From: Bacteroidota bacterium
Lineage (GTDB): Bacteria; Bacteroidota; Bacteroidia; NORP154
Reading direction: 5' to 3'
Assembly (NCBI GenBank): GCA_043811005.1
Contig: JBDRNO010000240.1
Location: 467-64,466, forward strand
Length of the DNA: 64,000 nt
Part shown: positions 33,493 to 37,143 of the stretch, piece by piece
Layout: each line of letters opens with the position of its first letter
How positions within the stretch are numbered: position 1 is the stretch's first letter
Notes under the pieces: model-generated
Database searches by the model: none
What the model saw: the letters and a program-made list of their open reading frames with translations, nothing else
What the model was told of the DNA's origin: nothing
Translations under genes and position numbers: made by a program

Positions 33493-36400
33493 TCACGAAG
33501 TTAAGTTCTTCTTCTCCACCCACTGAATTGACCTGTTCGGGCAAACGTCAATACACAATCCGCATAGGTTACATATAGTTTCATCTATCACGACCTTTGC
33601 ATCTACTTTTGTCATAGCGGGACAGCCGAAGTTATCAATACAATGATTGCACCAGTAACATGCCTGGTAAAGGTCGAATTGCTGTAATTGTTGTGAAATA
33701 TTTTGGGTTATCTCATTAATCCGAATATCATTCGGATCTACATTTATCCGAATATTATTCGGGTTTACTTTTGATCGAATATTATTCGGACTTACATTTA
33801 GCTTATCTAAGGCATCCTGTCCTTCATAAGCAATTGAATAATCCTCCAGCAATTGCCTAATACCTATTGCTGCTCTTTTGCCGCTTGCAATAGCCCCAAT
33901 GACGCTTATATGGTTTCCTGAACAAGCATCACCTGCTACGAACACCACTGGTTCCGACTGTATCTGCCCCTCTCTCTTCGGTACGACCTGGCTCAGGGTG
34001 GGCTTTTTATATTTTACAAGTCCGTTTTTCTTCTCAATTTTTATTCTTATGTCTTTATCAAATTGCAAAGAATTGATGCCGCTAAAAAGTGTCTTATCCC
34101 CTCTTTGCCCTATTGCCACTATCACATAATCGCATACGATTTTTTGCAAATGTTTTTTGGTTTTAAAAGAACTTAATTTAAAACTAATCTTACCATCAGC
34201 TTTTACCGGGCAGTGTTCAACAAAGCTGTCAGGAACTAATTCGATACCTTCCTCCACAGCATGTTCAATTTCTTCGGCAAAAGCGGGCATTTCTTCAGTG
34301 GTTTCAATGCATGAAACGATAACTCTATTTTTGCTATCCAGCCGTTTTGCCGTTCTCGCAGCATCAATGGCGCTGTTGCCGCCACCTATCAATAAAATTG
34401 AGGAAGCGGGATTCAACTCAAGGGTTTTAAAATAATATTCCCTCAAAAAAGAGAGTGCATCAAACCGTTTCTCACGGGGAATATTCTCTTCAATAATATC
34501 AAGCGTTAATGATTTCGGCATACCTGTTGCCAGTATCACACCGTCATATTTCCCGGTTAATTTGTCAAGAGAGATATCTTTCCCCAGGGAGATGTTATAT
34601 TTAAACTTCACACCTAATTCGCCGAGCTGGGATACTTCAAAGTCAAACCCTTTCTTATCCATACGAAAATCAGGAATAGCATACCTGATAAGCCCCCCTC
34701 CTTGTTTTTCCTTTTCAAAAACTGTTACCTTATAGCCGGCTTGGATAAGGTCATAAGCAGCGCTTAGCCCAGCAGGTCCTGCACCGACTATGGCGATATC
34801 TTTATTTTTCTTTTCAGATGACTTAACGCGTTCTTTGAGAGCGGAAAAATCATAAAAATTCTCATCAATTGAAGATACAAATTTCTTCAATTGCTTAACA
34901 GGTACGACCGGGCCGGTCTCTTTCCCTGTATACAATTCACAGGGACGGTGGCAAATGTCACCACATGTTCGGGCAAACAATATCTTATCCTTAACGATCT
35001 CGAGAGCAGATTTGTAATTTCGATCCATAATGGAATAAAAGAAACTGTGATTACAGATGTTTGCAGGGCATGGCTGCATTTCGCCGGGGATCGAGTACTC
35101 AGCGCTTATTTTTGCTTTTGCCCTTCTCAAATTGCTCCCGGGAGAGTATGTTCTTGAGCATGGCAATGTGTGGTCAAGGTGATTGCCACAATTGGTACAG
35201 AGGTTATGGTCAACAGTGATAATAGCATTTTTCGGGATCTTAGTTTTATGATCAGGATGAAAAATGCAAGGTGATGTGGATACGATCACAGAGACGCCTT
35301 TTACCAAACTGGCATCCCTGATCTTTTCATAGCTGTTTTTCACATCAAACGGATCAATTGTTTCCACATATTGAATCCCCATTCCTTTTAAGAGAGGGGG
35401 AATGTCAATTTCCCGGTATTTGTCAGAGCGGGAAGCTCCGGGATGGTCCTGTCCTCCTGTCATTCCGATTGTACGGTTGTCAAAAATGACGACCATGATA
35501 TTTGCATTAGTATATACGGCATTCATCATGGATGCGATACCTGAGTGGAAGAATGTGCCGTCACCGATAAGGGCTATGGTTTTAGCCCCCCCCCACTTAC
35601 CCGATGTGGAGGAGGAACATAGGGCTTCGGAAAGACCCTGTGCCATGGAGATGCTCATTCCCATGTGGTGAATGGTATCTATCATCTGAATTGGTGGCAG
35701 GGCGCCTAAGCCGAAACAGCCAATGTCACCGCATAGTACTACATTATTGTTATCACGTGGGATGGATAATTTCAAAGCATAGAATGTTGCTCTGTGCGGA
35801 CAACCAGGACAAAGTGAAGGTGGGCGGGGTGGCAGGATAACCTCTCCCACTCCAGACAGGGCAGGGACAAGCGACACCTTCTCCGGGGGAGGGTGGGAGA
35901 GAGAAACAACCGGTGGAAGTTCTTTCTTCCGTTTTAACGGTTGCCCGACAAACTCCTCAACAGCTTGTTTCACAATGTCAATGGAAAATTCGCCAGTGGT
36001 TGCAAGGGAAGAAAATCCTTTACCGAAAATATTGCAATCAATATTATGTTTTTGTGCAATAACGCGCACCTGATCCTCAACTATTGGATCTAATTCCTCA
36101 AGAACTAATATGCGTGGCACGGCTTGAAGCCGTGTCATGCTTTTTTCGGTTTCTAATATGCGTGCCACGGTTTGGAACCGTGTCACGCTTTTGAGAAAAG
36201 GAATGACATTATTTTCAGGAAATGGATGGATCAATCCCAATTTTAAAACTTTAATCTTCCCTGTGAGCTTGTTATCGTACAAAATCTCAGAAAGATAAAC
36301 AGATGAAACACCGCTGCTTATAATACACAGAGAAGGTAAAAATTTCAACTTTCCAAAAGTTTTAGAACTTTTGGAAAGTTCTATATTATGTTTTTCAAAA

Positions 36401-37143
36401 AAAGGAGTAATTATATTGCTGTATAGCTTTTCCAATAACTTTTGATGTGCTGTGGCAGTGCGGGCAGGGATGTTTATATGTCCGGGCATTTTTTCAAATT
36501 TGCCTGGCTGGTTATTAAAAGAAAACTCATTGTAAAAAACCATTCCCCTGCTATGTGACACCCGTGTGGTCATCCTGACTATTACCGGGAGCTTAAGTTT
36601 CCCGGAAAGCACAAAGGCATCCTTTGTCATTGAATAGGCATCCTCGGGAAATGCAGGATTAAAGACAGGTACTGATGCCATCTTTCCCCAGTAGCGGCTG
36701 TCCTGTTCGTTTGAACTGGAATGGCAGCCAGGATCATCGCAGACAACAATGACCAAAGGAGCACAAATCGTCTGGTAGGTAATGGACATCAATGGGTCGG
36801 AAGCGACATTCATCCCCACATTTTTCATACAGCACATTGCACTTTTGTTACCTATGGTATAAGCAATGGCTTTCTCCAAAGCAACTTTTTCGTTTACACT
36901 GTACTCAAAATAAATTGGATTTGATGTCAGTTCAGGAAATTTCTTTTTGTGTCCGGGGTCATTTTGAAATTCACTGACATGATTAAATACCTCAGAAATT
37001 TCAGTAGAAGGGGTGCCTGGATAAGCAAAAACGCCCTGAACCCCGGCTTCAATTGCCCCCCTGGCAATCGCTTCGTTACCGATCGGACAAGTCTTTTGGG
37101 GTTTTTTATAGGAGGTTAGTATTTTGATTATTTTGTCGAACAT
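33493..37143 (-). CDS. iorA: indolepyruvate:ferredoxin oxidoreductase alpha subunit with an inserted GltD/NfnB-like FAD/NAD(P) oxidoreductase module and C-terminal 2x[4Fe-4S] domain
   Basis: N-terminal IorA TPP domains (GVFAYPGTPSTEI; GDIGCFGLG...IGDGTFFHSG...GMTGGQ). The middle is GltD-like (CGDICHRPCE; IAIVGAGPAGLSAAYDL; LLIGGGNSAIDAAR; VFVAGDA). The C-terminus carries CNLCGLCIDVCP. There are four in-frame hairpin/repeat inserts. Confidence 0.75.
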   Translation of the reverse strand: MFDKIIKILTSYKKPQKTCPIGNEAIARGAIEAGVQGVFAYPGTPSTEISEVFNHVSEFQNDPGHKKKFPELTSNPIYFEYSVNEKVALEKAIAYTIGNKSAMCCMKNVGMNVASDPLMSITYQTICAPLVIVVCDDPGCHSSSNEQDSRYWGKMASVPVFNPAFPEDAYSMTKDAFVLSGKLKLPVIVRMTTRVSHSRGMVFYNEFSFNNQPGKFEKMPGHINIPARTATAHQKLLEKLYSNIITPFFEKHNIELSKSSKTFGKLKFLPSLCIISSGVSSVYLSEILYDNKLTGKIKVLKLGLIHPFPENNVIPFLKSVTRFQTVARILETEKSMTRLQAVPRILVLEELDPIVEDQVRVIAQKHNIDCNIFGKGFSSLATTGEFSIDIVKQAVEEFVGQPLKRKKELPPVVSLSHPPPEKVSLVPALSGVGEVILPPRPPSLCPGCPHRATFYALKLSIPRDNNNVVLCGDIGCFGLGALPPIQMIDTIHHMGMSISMAQGLSEALCSSSTSGKWGGAKTIALIGDGTFFHSGIASMMNAVYTNANIMVVIFDNRTIGMTGGQDHPGASRSDKYREIDIPPLLKGMGIQYVETIDPFDVKNSYEKIRDASLVKGVSVIVSTSPCIFHPDHKTKIPKNAIITVDHNLCTNCGNHLDHTLPCSRTYSPGSNLRRAKAKISAEYSIPGEMQPCPANICNHSFFYSIMDRNYKSALEIVKDKILFARTCGDICHRPCELYTGKETGPVVPVKQLKKFVSSIDENFYDFSALKERVKSSEKKNKDIAIVGAGPAGLSAAYDLIQAGYKVTVFEKEKQGGGLIRYAIPDFRMDKKGFDFEVSQLGELGVKFKYNISLGKDISLDKLTGKYDGVILATGMPKSLTLDIIEENIPREKRFDALSFLREYYFKTLELNPASSILLIGGGNSAIDAARTAKRLDSKNRVIVSCIETTEEMPAFAEEIEHAVEEGIELVPDSFVEHCPVKADGKISFKLSSFKTKKHLQKIVCDYVIVAIGQRGDKTLFSGINSLQFDKDIRIKIEKKNGLVKYKKPTLSQVVPKREGQIQSEPVVFVAGDACSGNHISVIGAIASGKRAAIGIRQLLEDYSIAYEGQDALDKLNVSPNNIRSKVNPNNIRINVDPNDIRINEITQNISQQLQQFDLYQACYWCNHCIDNFGCPAMTKVDAKVVIDETICNLCGLCIDVCPNRSIQWVEKKNLTS
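33721..33789. repeat. 3 x 27-bp tandem repeat, each unit carrying the palindrome CCGAATAT[CT]ATTCGG, in frame in CDS
   Basis: Palindromes at 33721-33735, 33748-33762 and 33775-33789. Period is 27 nt, or 9 codons. Translated as SPNNIRSKVNPNNIRINVDPNDIRIN. Confidence 0.9.
35842..35901. repeat. GC-rich inverted repeat CTCTCCCAC...GTGGGAGAG in frame in CDS
   Basis: 9-bp perfect arms plus TCC/GGA, with a ~34-nt spacer. Translated as LSHPPPEKVSLVPALSGVGEV. Confidence 0.8.
36105..36200. repeat. 2 x 48-bp tandem repeat, each with hairpin CACGG[CT]TT[GT]GAA[GA]CCGTG, in frame in CDS
   Basis: Units start at 36105 and 36153 with the same CTAATATGCGTG. Hairpins at 36118-36134 and 36166-36182. 48 nt equals 16 codons. 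Confidence 0.9.
36347..36380. repeat. perfect palindrome AACTTTCCAAAAGTT-TTAG-AACTTTTGGAAAGTT in frame in CDS
   Basis: 15-bp arms identical to the intergenic copy at 6339-6371. Translated as ELSKSSKTFGKLKF. Confidence 0.9.

What the first reader, a model, noticed from the sequence alone, without database searches (positions are those of the whole stretch)
33721..33789. Three tandem 27-bp units, each a CCGAATATYATTCGG palindrome, translated as a 9-residue peptide repeat
The palindromes are at 33721-33735, 33748-33762 and 33775-33789, with an exact 27-nt period of 9 codons. They encode SPNNIRSKV / NPNNIRINV / DPNDIRINE in the linker between the GltD-like module and the C-terminal ferredoxin domain. 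A DNA or RNA hairpin array that keeps a multiple-of-three period inside a CDS is unusual. It suggests an expanding hairpin element constrained only by frame.
Basis: seen in the sequence. Interest (0 to 1): 0.6.

Follow-up and report, generated by a model that had tools for sequence, protein, structure and literature searches.

The report
REP hairpin triplet translated inside gene
The three 27-base hairpin units are copies of a small selfish palindromic repeat (a REP-type element) sitting in frame in a flexible linker of an oxidoreductase gene, adding 27 amino acids; this is a known kind of event seen here in a new gene and repeat variant.

Summary
Three head-to-tail 27-bp units lie at window 33715-33795. 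Each has a CGAAT-N3-ATTCG hairpin and is read in frame as VSPNNIRSK/VNPNNIRIN/VDPNDIRIN in the linker of a 1216-aa IorA/GltD-like/ferredoxin fusion. None of about 117 homologues has the repeat.

On the coding strand each unit reads GTAG or GTAA, then an 8-bp stem, a 3-nt loop and the return stem. That is the layout of GTAG-tagged REP elements. A second locus in the same genome (contig C40) holds two inverted copies, the better one 24/27 identical. A Saprospiraceae genome has 33 copies of GTAG-GTCCGAAT-N3-ATTCGGAC. CGAAT-core units with the same 27-bp period form in-frame arrays inside subclass-2.4 RAYT transposase genes in many Bacteroidota.

A covariance model trained only on foreign units finds the three window units (28.3, 18.2 and 12.6 bits; background at most 8.7). 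The same gene carries three more in-frame palindromes from two other dispersed families.

Best reading: an old, diverged, probably neutral intragenic REP cluster. Intragenic REP groups that encode 20-30 residues are already published. No cognate transposase was found in this 83%-complete genome.

The parts
33715..33741 (-). REP-type unit 3 in reading order: GTAG-ATCCGAAT-GAT-ATTCGGAT-TAAT. It has a perfect 8-bp stem (9 with a G-U pair) and a 3-nt loop, and encodes VDPNDIRIN.
   Evidence: Sequence. The covariance model trained on foreign units scores it 28.3 bits, E 3.2e-6, full length 1-27. The unit folds at -9.5 kcal/mol.
33742..33768 (-). REP-type unit 2: GTAA-ACCCGAAT-AAT-ATTCGGAT-AAAT. One mismatched stem pair. 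Encodes VNPNNIRIN.
   Evidence: Covariance model 18.2 bits, E 0.004. Folds at -5.7 kcal/mol.
33769..33795 (-). REP-type unit 1: GTAA-GTCCGAAT-AAT-ATTCGATC-AAAA. The 3' arm has decayed (two mismatched pairs). Encodes VSPNNIRSK. Its first 12 nt, GTAAGTCCGAAT, equal those of a Saprospiraceae REP copy (L062).
   Evidence: Covariance model 12.6 bits, E 0.2. Comparison with L062. Folds at -2.4 kcal/mol.
33493..37143 (-). Host CDS, 1216 aa: IorA-like TPP enzyme, GltD-like FAD/NAD(P) module and a C-terminal 4Fe-4S ferredoxin domain. It is intact and about 70-90 aa longer than its homologues because of lineage-specific insertions.
   Evidence: ORF and translation. Pfam. Homologues are typically about 1120-1150 aa. 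Insertion map.
36347..36380 (.). Another in-frame palindrome in the same CDS (family A): AACTTTCCAAAAGTT-CTAA-AACTTTTGGAAAGTT. About 23 dispersed copies in the genome.
   Evidence: blastn and copy table.
36106..36192 (-). Two in-frame copies of palindrome family B (GCGTGnCACGGTT-N3-AACCGTGnCACGC) exactly 48 bp apart, encoding KSVTRFQTVARILETE / KSMTRLQAVPRILVLE. About 22 copies in the genome.
   Evidence: The two copies differ by a compensatory T-A to C-G change in the stem.
35860..35913 (-). GC-rich lineage-specific insertion (residues 411-428). It resembles the dispersed CACCTCTCCCCCGG / CCCCTCTCC..GGAGAGGGG element family.
   Evidence: Insertion map, sequence, family listing. The resemblance was judged by eye and not scored.

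Best explanation
The array is an intragenic cluster of three REP-type units: repetitive palindromes of the GTAG-tagged class, whose relatives elsewhere go with subclass-2.4 REP-associated tyrosine transposases (RAYT).

**Shown**
- Each unit has a GTAG or GTAA tag directly at the foot of an 8-bp stem with inner core CGAAT, a 3-nt loop and a 27-bp period.
- Units of the same type sit at a second, unlinked locus of this genome as an inverted doublet, and as a 33-copy family in another Bacteroidota genome.
- Homologues of the host protein lack the array.
- The same gene carries three more in-frame palindromes from two other dispersed families.

**Inferred**
- A REP unit, or a short array, entered the linker-coding DNA by the single-strand, hairpin-guided transposition that RAYTs are thought to carry out.
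- It was then amplified locally in 27-bp steps. Slipped-strand replication stabilised by the hairpins is the likeliest route.
- It survived because 27 bp is 9 codons, this frame has no stop, and the site is a length-variable linker between the flavoprotein module and the ferredoxin domain.
- The event is old, since units are 70-85% identical and one 3' arm has decayed.
- The array is most likely a neutral passenger, translated as a 27-residue extension of the tether.
For: **Architecture**
- On the coding strand the units read GTAGATCCGAATGATATTCGGATTAAT, GTAAACCCGAATAATATTCGGATAAAT and GTAAGTCCGAATAATATTCGATCAAAA.

**Related arrays in other genomes**
- The pattern CGAAT-N3-ATTCG-N14-CGAAT-N3-ATTCG should occur about 0.5 times by chance in 596 Gb (my calculation).
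- It hits 35 genome loci and 32 metagenome loci.
- Most are GTAG-GGGCGAAT-N3-ATTCGCCC arrays of 3-9 units with the same 27-bp period.
- Many lie in frame inside RAYT-like ORFs, which carry the HUH motif MPNHIHGII plus WQRNYYEHIIR and YIxNNP. There they are read as GELHSPxxx repeats.
- One such RAYT array (L066) holds a TCCGAAT...ATTCGGA unit next to a GGGCGAAT unit.

**Tag**
- Among 82 foreign units chosen for having GT[AG][AG] at that offset, 63 have GTAG and 13 have GTAA.

**Covariance model**
- A model built from 55 foreign units finds exactly the three window units at full length on the coding strand: 28.3, 18.2 and 12.6 bits.
- The best unrelated window hit scores 8.7 bits.

**Second locus in this genome**
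- C40:13606-13632 is GTAAATCCGAATTGTATTCGGATTAAT, 24/27 identical to unit 3.
- An inverted partner lies at C40:13658-13684. Model scores are 30 and 23.1 bits.
- The pair folds as one long hairpin at -31 kcal/mol. It straddles the stop of a 320-aa ORF and the gap before the next gene.

**Family in another genome**
- Genome G041 (Saprospiraceae) has 33 copies of TCCGAAT-N3-ATTCGGA against 0 for the control. The consensus is GTAG-GTCCGAAT-GGC-ATTCGGAC.

**Genome setting**
- At least 6-8 RAYT homologues are present, each with its own GTAG..CTAC hairpin inside its ORF.
- There are 1207 hairpins with stems of 8 bp or more, against 537 in a shuffle.
- Family B palindromes sit inside at least 14 different ORFs in several frames.

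**Host protein**
- None of about 117 homologues has the repeat. The YEG-to-QxC linker is 51 aa here against a median of 36.

**Literature**
- Intragenic GTAG REPs are often grouped, encode 20-30 aa and are thought neutral in linkers (PMC3733652).
- Subclass 2.4 REPs are inserted in frame in tnpA_REP genes (PMC6006769).
Against: - **Low copy number.** This genome has only two loci and five units. None of its seven order-level relatives has the motif.
- **No cognate transposase.** No RAYT carrying a CGAAT-core hairpin was found in this genome. The genome is a metagenome-assembled genome (MAG) only 83% complete. None was found next to the three Y1_Tnp genes examined in G041 either.
- **Imperfect tag and foot.** Only one of the three units has the canonical GTAG; two have GTAA. 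The stem foot is ATC/GTC rather than the three G-C pairs of canonical subclass-2.4 REPs.
- **Partial circularity.** The foreign units were retrieved with a pattern derived from the finding, so the 10-nt core match is not independent. Only the tag, the outer stem pairs and the 3' tail are.
- **Conditional period.** The shared 27-bp period depends on that pattern. An unbiased spacing scan of 400 genomes of the class found only four other genomes with pairs, spaced 20, 29, 43, 45 and 47 bp.
- **Length accounting.** Removing all 27 residues would leave a 24-aa linker, below the minimum of 31 in homologues. The first unit also aligns loosely with a native LN..P...R/K motif. Part of the array may therefore have replaced native sequence, or may be native.
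Confidence: 0.7

Rival explanations
1. Plain tandem duplication of native linker DNA. A 27-bp stretch of the host's own linker, which happened to contain a short palindrome (CCG AAT AAT ATT CGG = PNNIR), was duplicated twice by replication slippage. The resemblance to REP families is coincidental.
For: - The first peptide unit (LNVSPNNIRSK) lines up with an LN..P...R/K motif in several homologues.
- The linker is only about 15 aa longer than the median, not 27.
- The unit has very few copies in the genome.
- Pro and Arg codons, and Asn and Ile codons, are natural reverse complements. From this genome's codon usage, a PNxIR peptide has roughly a 4% chance of being encoded as a perfect 6-bp palindrome (my calculation).
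- Another homologue (P0053) expanded a different repeat in the same linker.
Against: - A second, unlinked locus carries two inverted copies, the better one matching 24/27 including the GTAA tag and the TAAT tail.
- The stem is identical to a 33-copy GTAG-tagged family in another genome.
- The tag sits at exactly the foot of the stem in all three units.
- The same gene holds three undoubted dispersed-palindrome insertions.
Confidence: 0.17
2. A selected functional element. The hairpins might act in the mRNA (ribosome pausing before the ferredoxin domain, protection from RNases) or in the DNA (a protein-binding array). Alternatively the 9-residue repeat might be a useful longer tether for the ferredoxin domain.
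For: - Stems are better kept than spacers. By my count on the alignment, 1 of the 12 columns of the 6-bp stem varies, against 8 of 15 other columns.
- The fold is strong (z about -4.9).
- The one loop change is non-synonymous, while the one change in the 6-bp stem is synonymous.
Against: - No homologue has the array.
- Rfam gives no match and Pfam gives none over residues 1118-1144.
- One unit's stem is already decayed.
- AlphaFold2 gives only pLDDT 52-68, mostly coil, over the repeat.
- The better-kept stems are equally expected if the units derive from a transposase-recognised family.
- The ascertainment is post hoc: the array was noticed because the stems survive.
Confidence: 0.08
3. Assembly artefact: a mis-assembled repeat in a metagenome-assembled genome, so the copy number or even the in-frame state is not real.
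For: The genome is a MAG of 310 contigs. Reads could not be inspected.
Against: - The three units differ at many positions (70-85% identity), which assemblers resolve without ambiguity.
- The ORF is intact across 3.6 kb with all domains present.
Confidence: 0.03

Closest known systems
Intragenic GTAG-tagged REPs (Di Nocera et al. 2013, PMC3733652)
   Same: - Short palindrome with a 5' GT[AG]G-type tag.
- Found inside known protein genes without breaking the frame.
- More than half of such inserts are dimers or groups encoding 20-30 residues; here 3 units encode 27 residues.
- Proposed to be neutral because they sit in linkers or loops.
   Different: - Here the units form a strict head-to-tail direct array with a 27-bp period. 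REPs more often occur as inverted dimers.
- Two of three tags are GTAA.
- The host gene (an IorA/GltD/ferredoxin fusion) and this stem variant (ATCCGAAT) were not found in what I read of that paper.
Subclass 2.4 TnpA_REP (RAYT group 4) and its REPs (Quentin et al. 2018, PMC6006769)
   Same: - CGAAT-core hairpins with GTAG at the foot.
- In-frame REP insertions, with short repeats making a variable insertion domain.
- Found in Bacteroidetes and Cyanobacteria.
- The 27-bp arrays I retrieved sit between the HUH and Tyr motifs of such transposases.
   Different: - The window's array is in a metabolic enzyme, not in a transposase gene.
- Its stem foot is A-T/T-A/C-G instead of three G-C pairs.
- It is translated in another frame: PNNIR rather than GELHSP.
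- No cognate RAYT was identified in this genome.
REPINs (Bertels and Rainey 2011, PMC3116915)
   Same: The sister locus on contig C40 is an inverted doublet of the same unit with a short spacer. It folds into one long hairpin, which is the REPIN layout.
   Different: The array in the CDS is three direct repeats, not an inverted pair.
Rickettsia palindromic elements (RPE; Ogata et al. 2000, as cited in PMC3733652)
   Same: Selfish palindromic repeats inserted in frame into protein genes and translated.
   Different: RPE-1 elements are much longer (about 100-150 bp, from my own knowledge) and belong to unrelated sequence families in Alphaproteobacteria. No sequence comparison was made here.

Membership tests
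GTAG-tagged REP elements | Short (20-40 bp) palindrome able to form a stem-loop | tested here: met
   8-bp stem plus 3-nt loop. Unit 3 is perfect, unit 2 has 1 mismatched pair and unit 1 has 2. The region folds with z = -4.9.
GTAG-tagged REP elements | Conserved GT[AG]G tetranucleotide directly at the 5' foot of the stem | tested here: inconclusive
   GTAG in unit 3; GTAA in units 1 and 2 and in both C40 copies. Among 82 foreign CGAAT-core units chosen for GT[AG][AG] at that offset, 63 have GTAG and 13 have GTAA. The position is right, but the fourth base is canonical in only one unit.
GTAG-tagged REP elements | Belongs to a sequence family with copies at unlinked loci | tested here: met
   - A second locus in the same genome (C40, two inverted units, the better one 24/27 identical).
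- 33 copies of the same stem with a GTAG tag in genome G041.
- The copy number in this genome itself is low: 5 units at 2 loci.
GTAG-tagged REP elements | A cognate RAYT (TnpA_REP) gene flanked by, or containing, the same REP | tested here: inconclusive
   - This genome has at least 6-8 RAYT homologues, but none has a CGAAT-core hairpin. The genome is 83% complete.
- In other genomes, CGAAT-core units at a 27-bp period lie inside RAYT ORFs, including one TCCGAAT unit.
- No CGAAT hairpin lies next to the three Y1_Tnp genes of G041.
GTAG-tagged REP elements | Extragenic location | tested here: not met
   The array is inside an intact CDS. Intragenic members are documented exceptions (PMC3733652, PMC6006769), so this does not exclude membership.
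REPIN | Two REPs in inverted orientation separated by a short spacer | tested here: not met
   The window array is three direct repeats. The C40 locus does meet this feature.
CRISPR array | Identical repeats of 23-50 bp separated by unique spacers of similar length | tested here: not met
   The period is only 27 bp, and the 8-12-nt 'spacers' are homologous between units. The array lies inside a CDS. Adjacent cas genes were not looked for.
Known peptide-repeat domain | Match to a curated repeat or domain profile over the repeat | tested here: not met
   No Pfam family covers residues 1118-1144. The repeat is absent from all homologues.
Known structured RNA (Rfam) | Covariance-model match | tested here: not met
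   Only a chance-level hit outside the repeat, E 0.57.

The most novel reading that the evidence does not exclude
CGAAT-core REPs may have a coding-compatible way of spreading. They would amplify as direct tandem units of exactly 27 bp (9 codons). That would let them colonise open reading frames, both their own transposase's insertion domain and host genes such as this one, without frameshifts. Changes in array length could then tune linker length or transposase activity. On this reading the window's array is a rare capture of that process in a metabolic enzyme.
Probability: 0.12. Interest if true: 0.6.

Novelty: new member of a known kind. Interest (0 to 1): 0.33.

Why it matters
- **Annotation.** The odd 9-residue repeat in this enzyme is translated selfish DNA, not a functional motif. 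The extra length of the protein should not be read as a new domain.
- **A heavily colonised gene.** One 1216-aa enzyme gene carries six in-frame palindrome copies: three units of this repeat, one family-A copy and two family-B copies. It also has one probable GC-rich insert. That makes it a good natural test of how much insertion flexible linkers and loops tolerate.
- **A link across host genes.** The 27-bp (9-codon) period recurs in many in-frame arrays inside subclass-2.4 RAYT genes. This is a small but concrete lead on how these REPs amplify locally.
- **Overall.** The phenomenon itself is already described, so the result mostly explains the finding rather than opening a new question.

Tried and rejected
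- **Close relatives for an empty site.** The best homologue is only 46-52% identical in this region and the protein is a singleton cluster. Same-family genomes lack the gene.
- **Dispersed family in this genome.** The exact 13-mer and 15-mer, a position-weight-matrix scan and a covariance-model scan find only C240 and C40. Other CGAAT hairpins belong to a different nested palindrome family of about 65 bp and to a duplicated ATAG-CCCCGAAT unit.
- **Cognate RAYT.** None was found in this genome or at the three Y1_Tnp loci of G041.
- **Unbiased test of the 27-bp period.** Across 400 genomes of the class there were too few hits to decide.
- **Genome-wide test that tandem-repeat units are hairpin-rich.** There is only a slight excess (mean stem 3.25 against 3.89 is not the case; the values are 3.25 observed against 2.89 shuffled), driven by the palindrome families themselves.
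- **Rfam.** Nothing.
- **AlphaFold2 of the C-terminal 335 residues.** The flavoprotein core is confident. The whole last 100 residues, including the ferredoxin domain, are low confidence, so the low pLDDT of the repeat (52-68) is only weakly informative.
- **CRISPR, operator array and peptide-repeat domain.** Considered and rejected; see the membership table.
Full report
**1. Observation**

The sequence is as described.
- CCGAATATCATTCGG lies at 33721-33735 and CCGAATATTATTCGG at 33748-33762.
- The third site, 33775-33789, reads TCGAATATTATTCGG, so its first base departs from the stated consensus.
- TRF reports one array at 33710-33798: period 27, 3.3 copies, 80% matches.
- The repeat finder gives three 27-nt copies, 85% and 70% identical to the first.
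- The 15-mer with up to 2 mismatches occurs only at these three sites in the window. That is 6 strand-hits against 0.07 expected.
- The array lies in the minus-strand ORF 33493..37143 (1216 aa). Pfam shows a TPP-enzyme part (473-620), a Pyr_redox_2/GltD-like part (781-1038) and a Fer4 domain (1184-1206).
- The repeat occupies residues 1118-1144, in the linker before the ferredoxin domain.
- The region folds much better than shuffles, both as RNA (-30.8 against -15.9 +/- 3.0 kcal/mol, z -4.9) and as DNA (z -4.9).

**2. The repeat is lineage-specific**

- Four orthologues from the same class (43-59% identical over the matched stretches) have no repeat.
- Of 143 homologues found among 5.8 billion proteins, the 120 listed are at most about 52% identical in this region. 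The window protein is a singleton cluster.
- In about 117 homologues the stretch from YEG to QxCxxCxxC has a median of 36 residues and a minimum of 31. Here it is 51.
- Caveat: removing all 27 residues would leave only 24, below the observed minimum.
- The first unit also aligns loosely with a native LN..P...R/K motif. The array may therefore have replaced some native residues, or one unit's worth may be native.

**3. The gene and the genome are full of palindromic repeats**

- Against 18 homologues, the protein has five lineage-specific insertions.
- Two insertion sites are dispersed palindromes.
  - Family A is AACTTTCCAAAAGTT-N3-4-AACTTTTGGAAAGTT, at window 36347-36380, with about 23 copies in the genome.
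  - Family B is GCGTGnCACGGTT-N3-AACCGTGnCACGC, present as two copies 48 bp apart at window 36106-36192, with about 22 copies in the genome.
- Family B sits inside at least 14 different ORFs in several frames and orientations.
- The genome has 1207 hairpins with stems of at least 8 bp, against 537 in a shuffle. They fall into many families, which are mostly intergenic: 59 of 264 family members lie in long ORFs, against 77% of random positions.
- It encodes at least 6-8 RAYT homologues, each with its own GTAG...CTAC hairpin inside its ORF.

**4. What the 27-bp unit is**

Read on the coding strand, the units are:
- GTAGATCCGAATGATATTCGGATTAAT
- GTAAACCCGAATAATATTCGGATAAAT
- GTAAGTCCGAATAATATTCGATCAAAA

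Each is a GTAG or GTAA tag directly at the foot of an 8-bp stem, then a 3-nt loop, the return stem and a short A/T tail.

*Related arrays elsewhere.*
- I scanned for CGAAT-N3-ATTCG-N14-CGAAT-N3-ATTCG. It has 20 specified bases, and I estimate about 0.5 chance hits in 596 Gb.
- It hit 35 loci in the genome collection and 32 in the metagenome collection.
- Most are GTAG-GGGCGAAT-N3-ATTCGCCC units in head-to-tail arrays of 3-9 copies with the same 27-bp period. An example unit is GTAGGGGCGAATAACATTCGCCATGAG (L058).
- They come from Chitinophagales, Arcicella, Spirosomataceae, Lentimicrobium, Kiritimatiellia, Okeania and others.
- Many of these arrays lie in frame inside ORFs with the hallmarks of REP-associated tyrosine transposases: MPNHIHGII, WQRNYYEHIIRNE and YIxNNP, with weak Pfam Y1_Tnp matches on both halves. 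There they encode GELHSPxxx repeats.
- This is what Quentin et al. 2018 describe for TnpA_REP subclass 2.4. Their account covers REPs with GTAG and three G-C pairs at the foot. These are inserted in frame between the HuH and Tyr motifs, with short repeats making a variable insertion domain (PMC6006769).

*Variants with the window's own stem.*
- In L066, a TCCGAATTGCATTCGGAT unit sits 27 bp from a GGGCGAAT unit inside a RAYT array.
- L062 has GTAAGTCCGAATGGCATTCGGAC. Its first 12 nt equal those of window unit 1.
- The genome holding L062 (G041, a Saprospiraceae MAG) has 33 copies of TCCGAAT-N3-ATTCGGA against 0 for the control. The consensus is GTAG-GTCCGAAT-GGC-ATTCGGAC.

*A second locus in the window's own genome.*
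- A second locus exists at C40:13606-13632, reading GTAAATCCGAATTGTATTCGGATTAAT (24/27 identical to unit 3).
- An inverted partner lies at C40:13658-13684, reading GTAACTCCGAATTGTATTTGGATTAAA.
- Together they fold into one long hairpin at -31 kcal/mol.
- The first copy supplies the last codons and the stop of a 320-aa ORF. The second lies in the gap before the next gene.
- This REPIN-like layout at a gene's 3' end is typical of REPs (PMC3733652).

*Covariance-model test.*
- I built a model from 55 foreign units, with none from this genome.
- It finds the three window units at full length on the coding strand: 28.3 bits (E 3.2e-6), 18.2 bits (E 0.004) and 12.6 bits (E 0.2). The next unrelated hit scores 8.7 bits.
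- Genome-wide it also finds the two C40 copies, at 30 and 23.1 bits.
- Caveat: the training units were retrieved with a pattern taken from the finding, so the 10-nt core is shared by construction. The independent agreement is the tag, its exact position, the outer stem pairs (kept by compensatory changes, ATC/GAT or GTC/GAC against GGG/CCC) and the tail.

**5. How it most likely arose and works**

*Shown.* The architecture, the family relatives, the second locus, the absence from homologues, and an intact host frame.

*Inferred from published REP/RAYT biology.*
- A unit or short array was inserted through single-stranded, hairpin-recognising Y1 transposition.
- It was then amplified locally in 27-bp steps. 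Hairpins that stabilise slipped strands make replication slippage the simplest route.
- The array is open in only 2 of 6 frames, so this orientation and frame is a survivor.
- Because 27 bp is 9 codons, any copy number keeps the frame.
- The units are 70-85% identical and unit 1 has lost its 3' arm (unit hairpins fold at -2.4, -5.7 and -9.5 kcal/mol). The array is therefore not recent.

*Protein side.*
- AlphaFold2, run with a 41-sequence alignment, gives pLDDT above 90 for the flavoprotein core.
- Over the repeat it gives 52-68, mostly coil with one-turn helices. This fits a flexible tether.
- The ferredoxin domain is also poorly modelled, so this is weak evidence.
- The same linker in another homologue (P0053, locus L116) carries a different hairpin-repeat expansion. 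It has three direct TTTRCGAAATACGRAT copies and an 18-bp inverted partner, with fold z -3.8. This linker therefore tolerates such inserts repeatedly.

**6. Rivals**

- *Plain slippage duplication of native sequence with a coincidental palindrome.* It is not excluded, given the linker-length accounting, the low copy number, and the roughly 4% chance that PNxIR is encoded as a 6-bp palindrome under this genome's codon usage. It does not explain the C40 doublet, the tag or the cross-genome family.
- *A selected RNA, DNA or peptide function.* It has no positive support beyond stems being better kept than spacers. Descent from a transposase-recognised family predicts the same pattern.
- *Assembly error.* It is unlikely, because the units are clearly distinguishable.

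**7. Limits**

- No relative is close enough for an empty-site comparison.
- No cognate RAYT was found for this stem variant.
- The preference for a 27-bp period is conditional on my search pattern. A spacing-free scan of 400 genomes of the class gave too few cases (spacings 20, 29, 43, 45 and 47 bp in four genomes).

**8. Verdict**

- This is a real, non-chance feature.
The element can be named: an intragenic cluster of GTAG-type REP units.
- The kind of event is already published (PMC3733652, PMC6006769), so this is a new member of a known kind.
- Interest is modest. It is raised slightly by the strict 9-codon direct array, which is shared with RAYT-internal arrays, and by the number of independent palindrome inserts in one enzyme gene.

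Noticed in passing
window 36106-36192 (minus strand): Two family-B palindromes lie exactly 48 bp apart in frame (KSVTRFQTVARILETE / KSMTRLQAVPRILVLE). Their 6-bp inner stems differ by a compensatory T-A to C-G change made of two non-synonymous substitutions. Contig C215 has another 48-bp doublet of the same family inside a different ORF.
   Followed up: partly
window 36347-36380: A family-A 34-bp perfect palindrome is translated in the same CDS. About 23 copies exist in the genome, mostly intergenic.
   Followed up: partly
window 35860-35913 and 33946-34002: Two further lineage-specific, GC-rich (about 60%) insertions sit in the same CDS. The first resembles the CACCTCTCCCCCGG / CCCCTCTCC..GGAGAGGGG element family, which also has a copy near window 49432. 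The origin of the second is unknown.
   Followed up: partly
genome contigs C224, C261, C308, C96, C298, C216 (outside the window): At least six RAYT-like transposase genes each carry their own GTAG...CTAC 'double foot' hairpin inside the ORF, between the HUH and Tyr motifs. This matches the published subclass 2.4 description.
   Followed up: partly
genome contigs C22, C53, C108, C149, C175, C218, C266, C271, C273, C296, C309: An intergenic nested palindrome family of about 65 bp is built from three GCGAAT arms and three ATTCGC arms: AATCGCGAAT..GCGAAT..GCGAAT-AGT-ATTCGC..ATTCGC..ATTCGCGATT. There are 11 copies.
   Followed up: no
L116:3410-3580 (homologue P0053, ENA metagenome contig): The homologous linker of another IorA-fusion gene carries an independent repeat expansion (STNQTDLRNTN-type). 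It has three direct TTTRCGAAATACGRAT copies and an 18-bp perfect inverted partner; fold z is -3.8.
   Followed up: partly
L056 and L058 (Kiritimatiellia MAG), also L083 and L100: Arrays of 8 or more near-identical 27-bp units (GTAGGGGCGAATAACATTCGCCATGAG) run to the contig ends. In one frame they read ANVIRPYLM repeats, the same codon register as the window's PNNIR. Whether they are coding is unknown.
   Followed up: no
window 33702-33722 and 33797-33817: An imperfect 21-nt direct repeat (15/21) flanks the array: TTTGGGTTATCTCATTAATCC / TTTAGCTTATCTAAGGCATCC. The spacing is 95 nt, not a multiple of 27. It may be chance or a trace of the insertion event.
   Followed up: no
genome contigs C29:21061-21087 and C116:16640-16666: Two copies of ATAG-CCCCGAAT-GAA-ATTCGGGG-TATA lie inside a longer duplicated sequence. 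This is another CGAAT-core hairpin with a near-GTAG tag; the covariance model scores it 18.4 bits.
   Followed up: no
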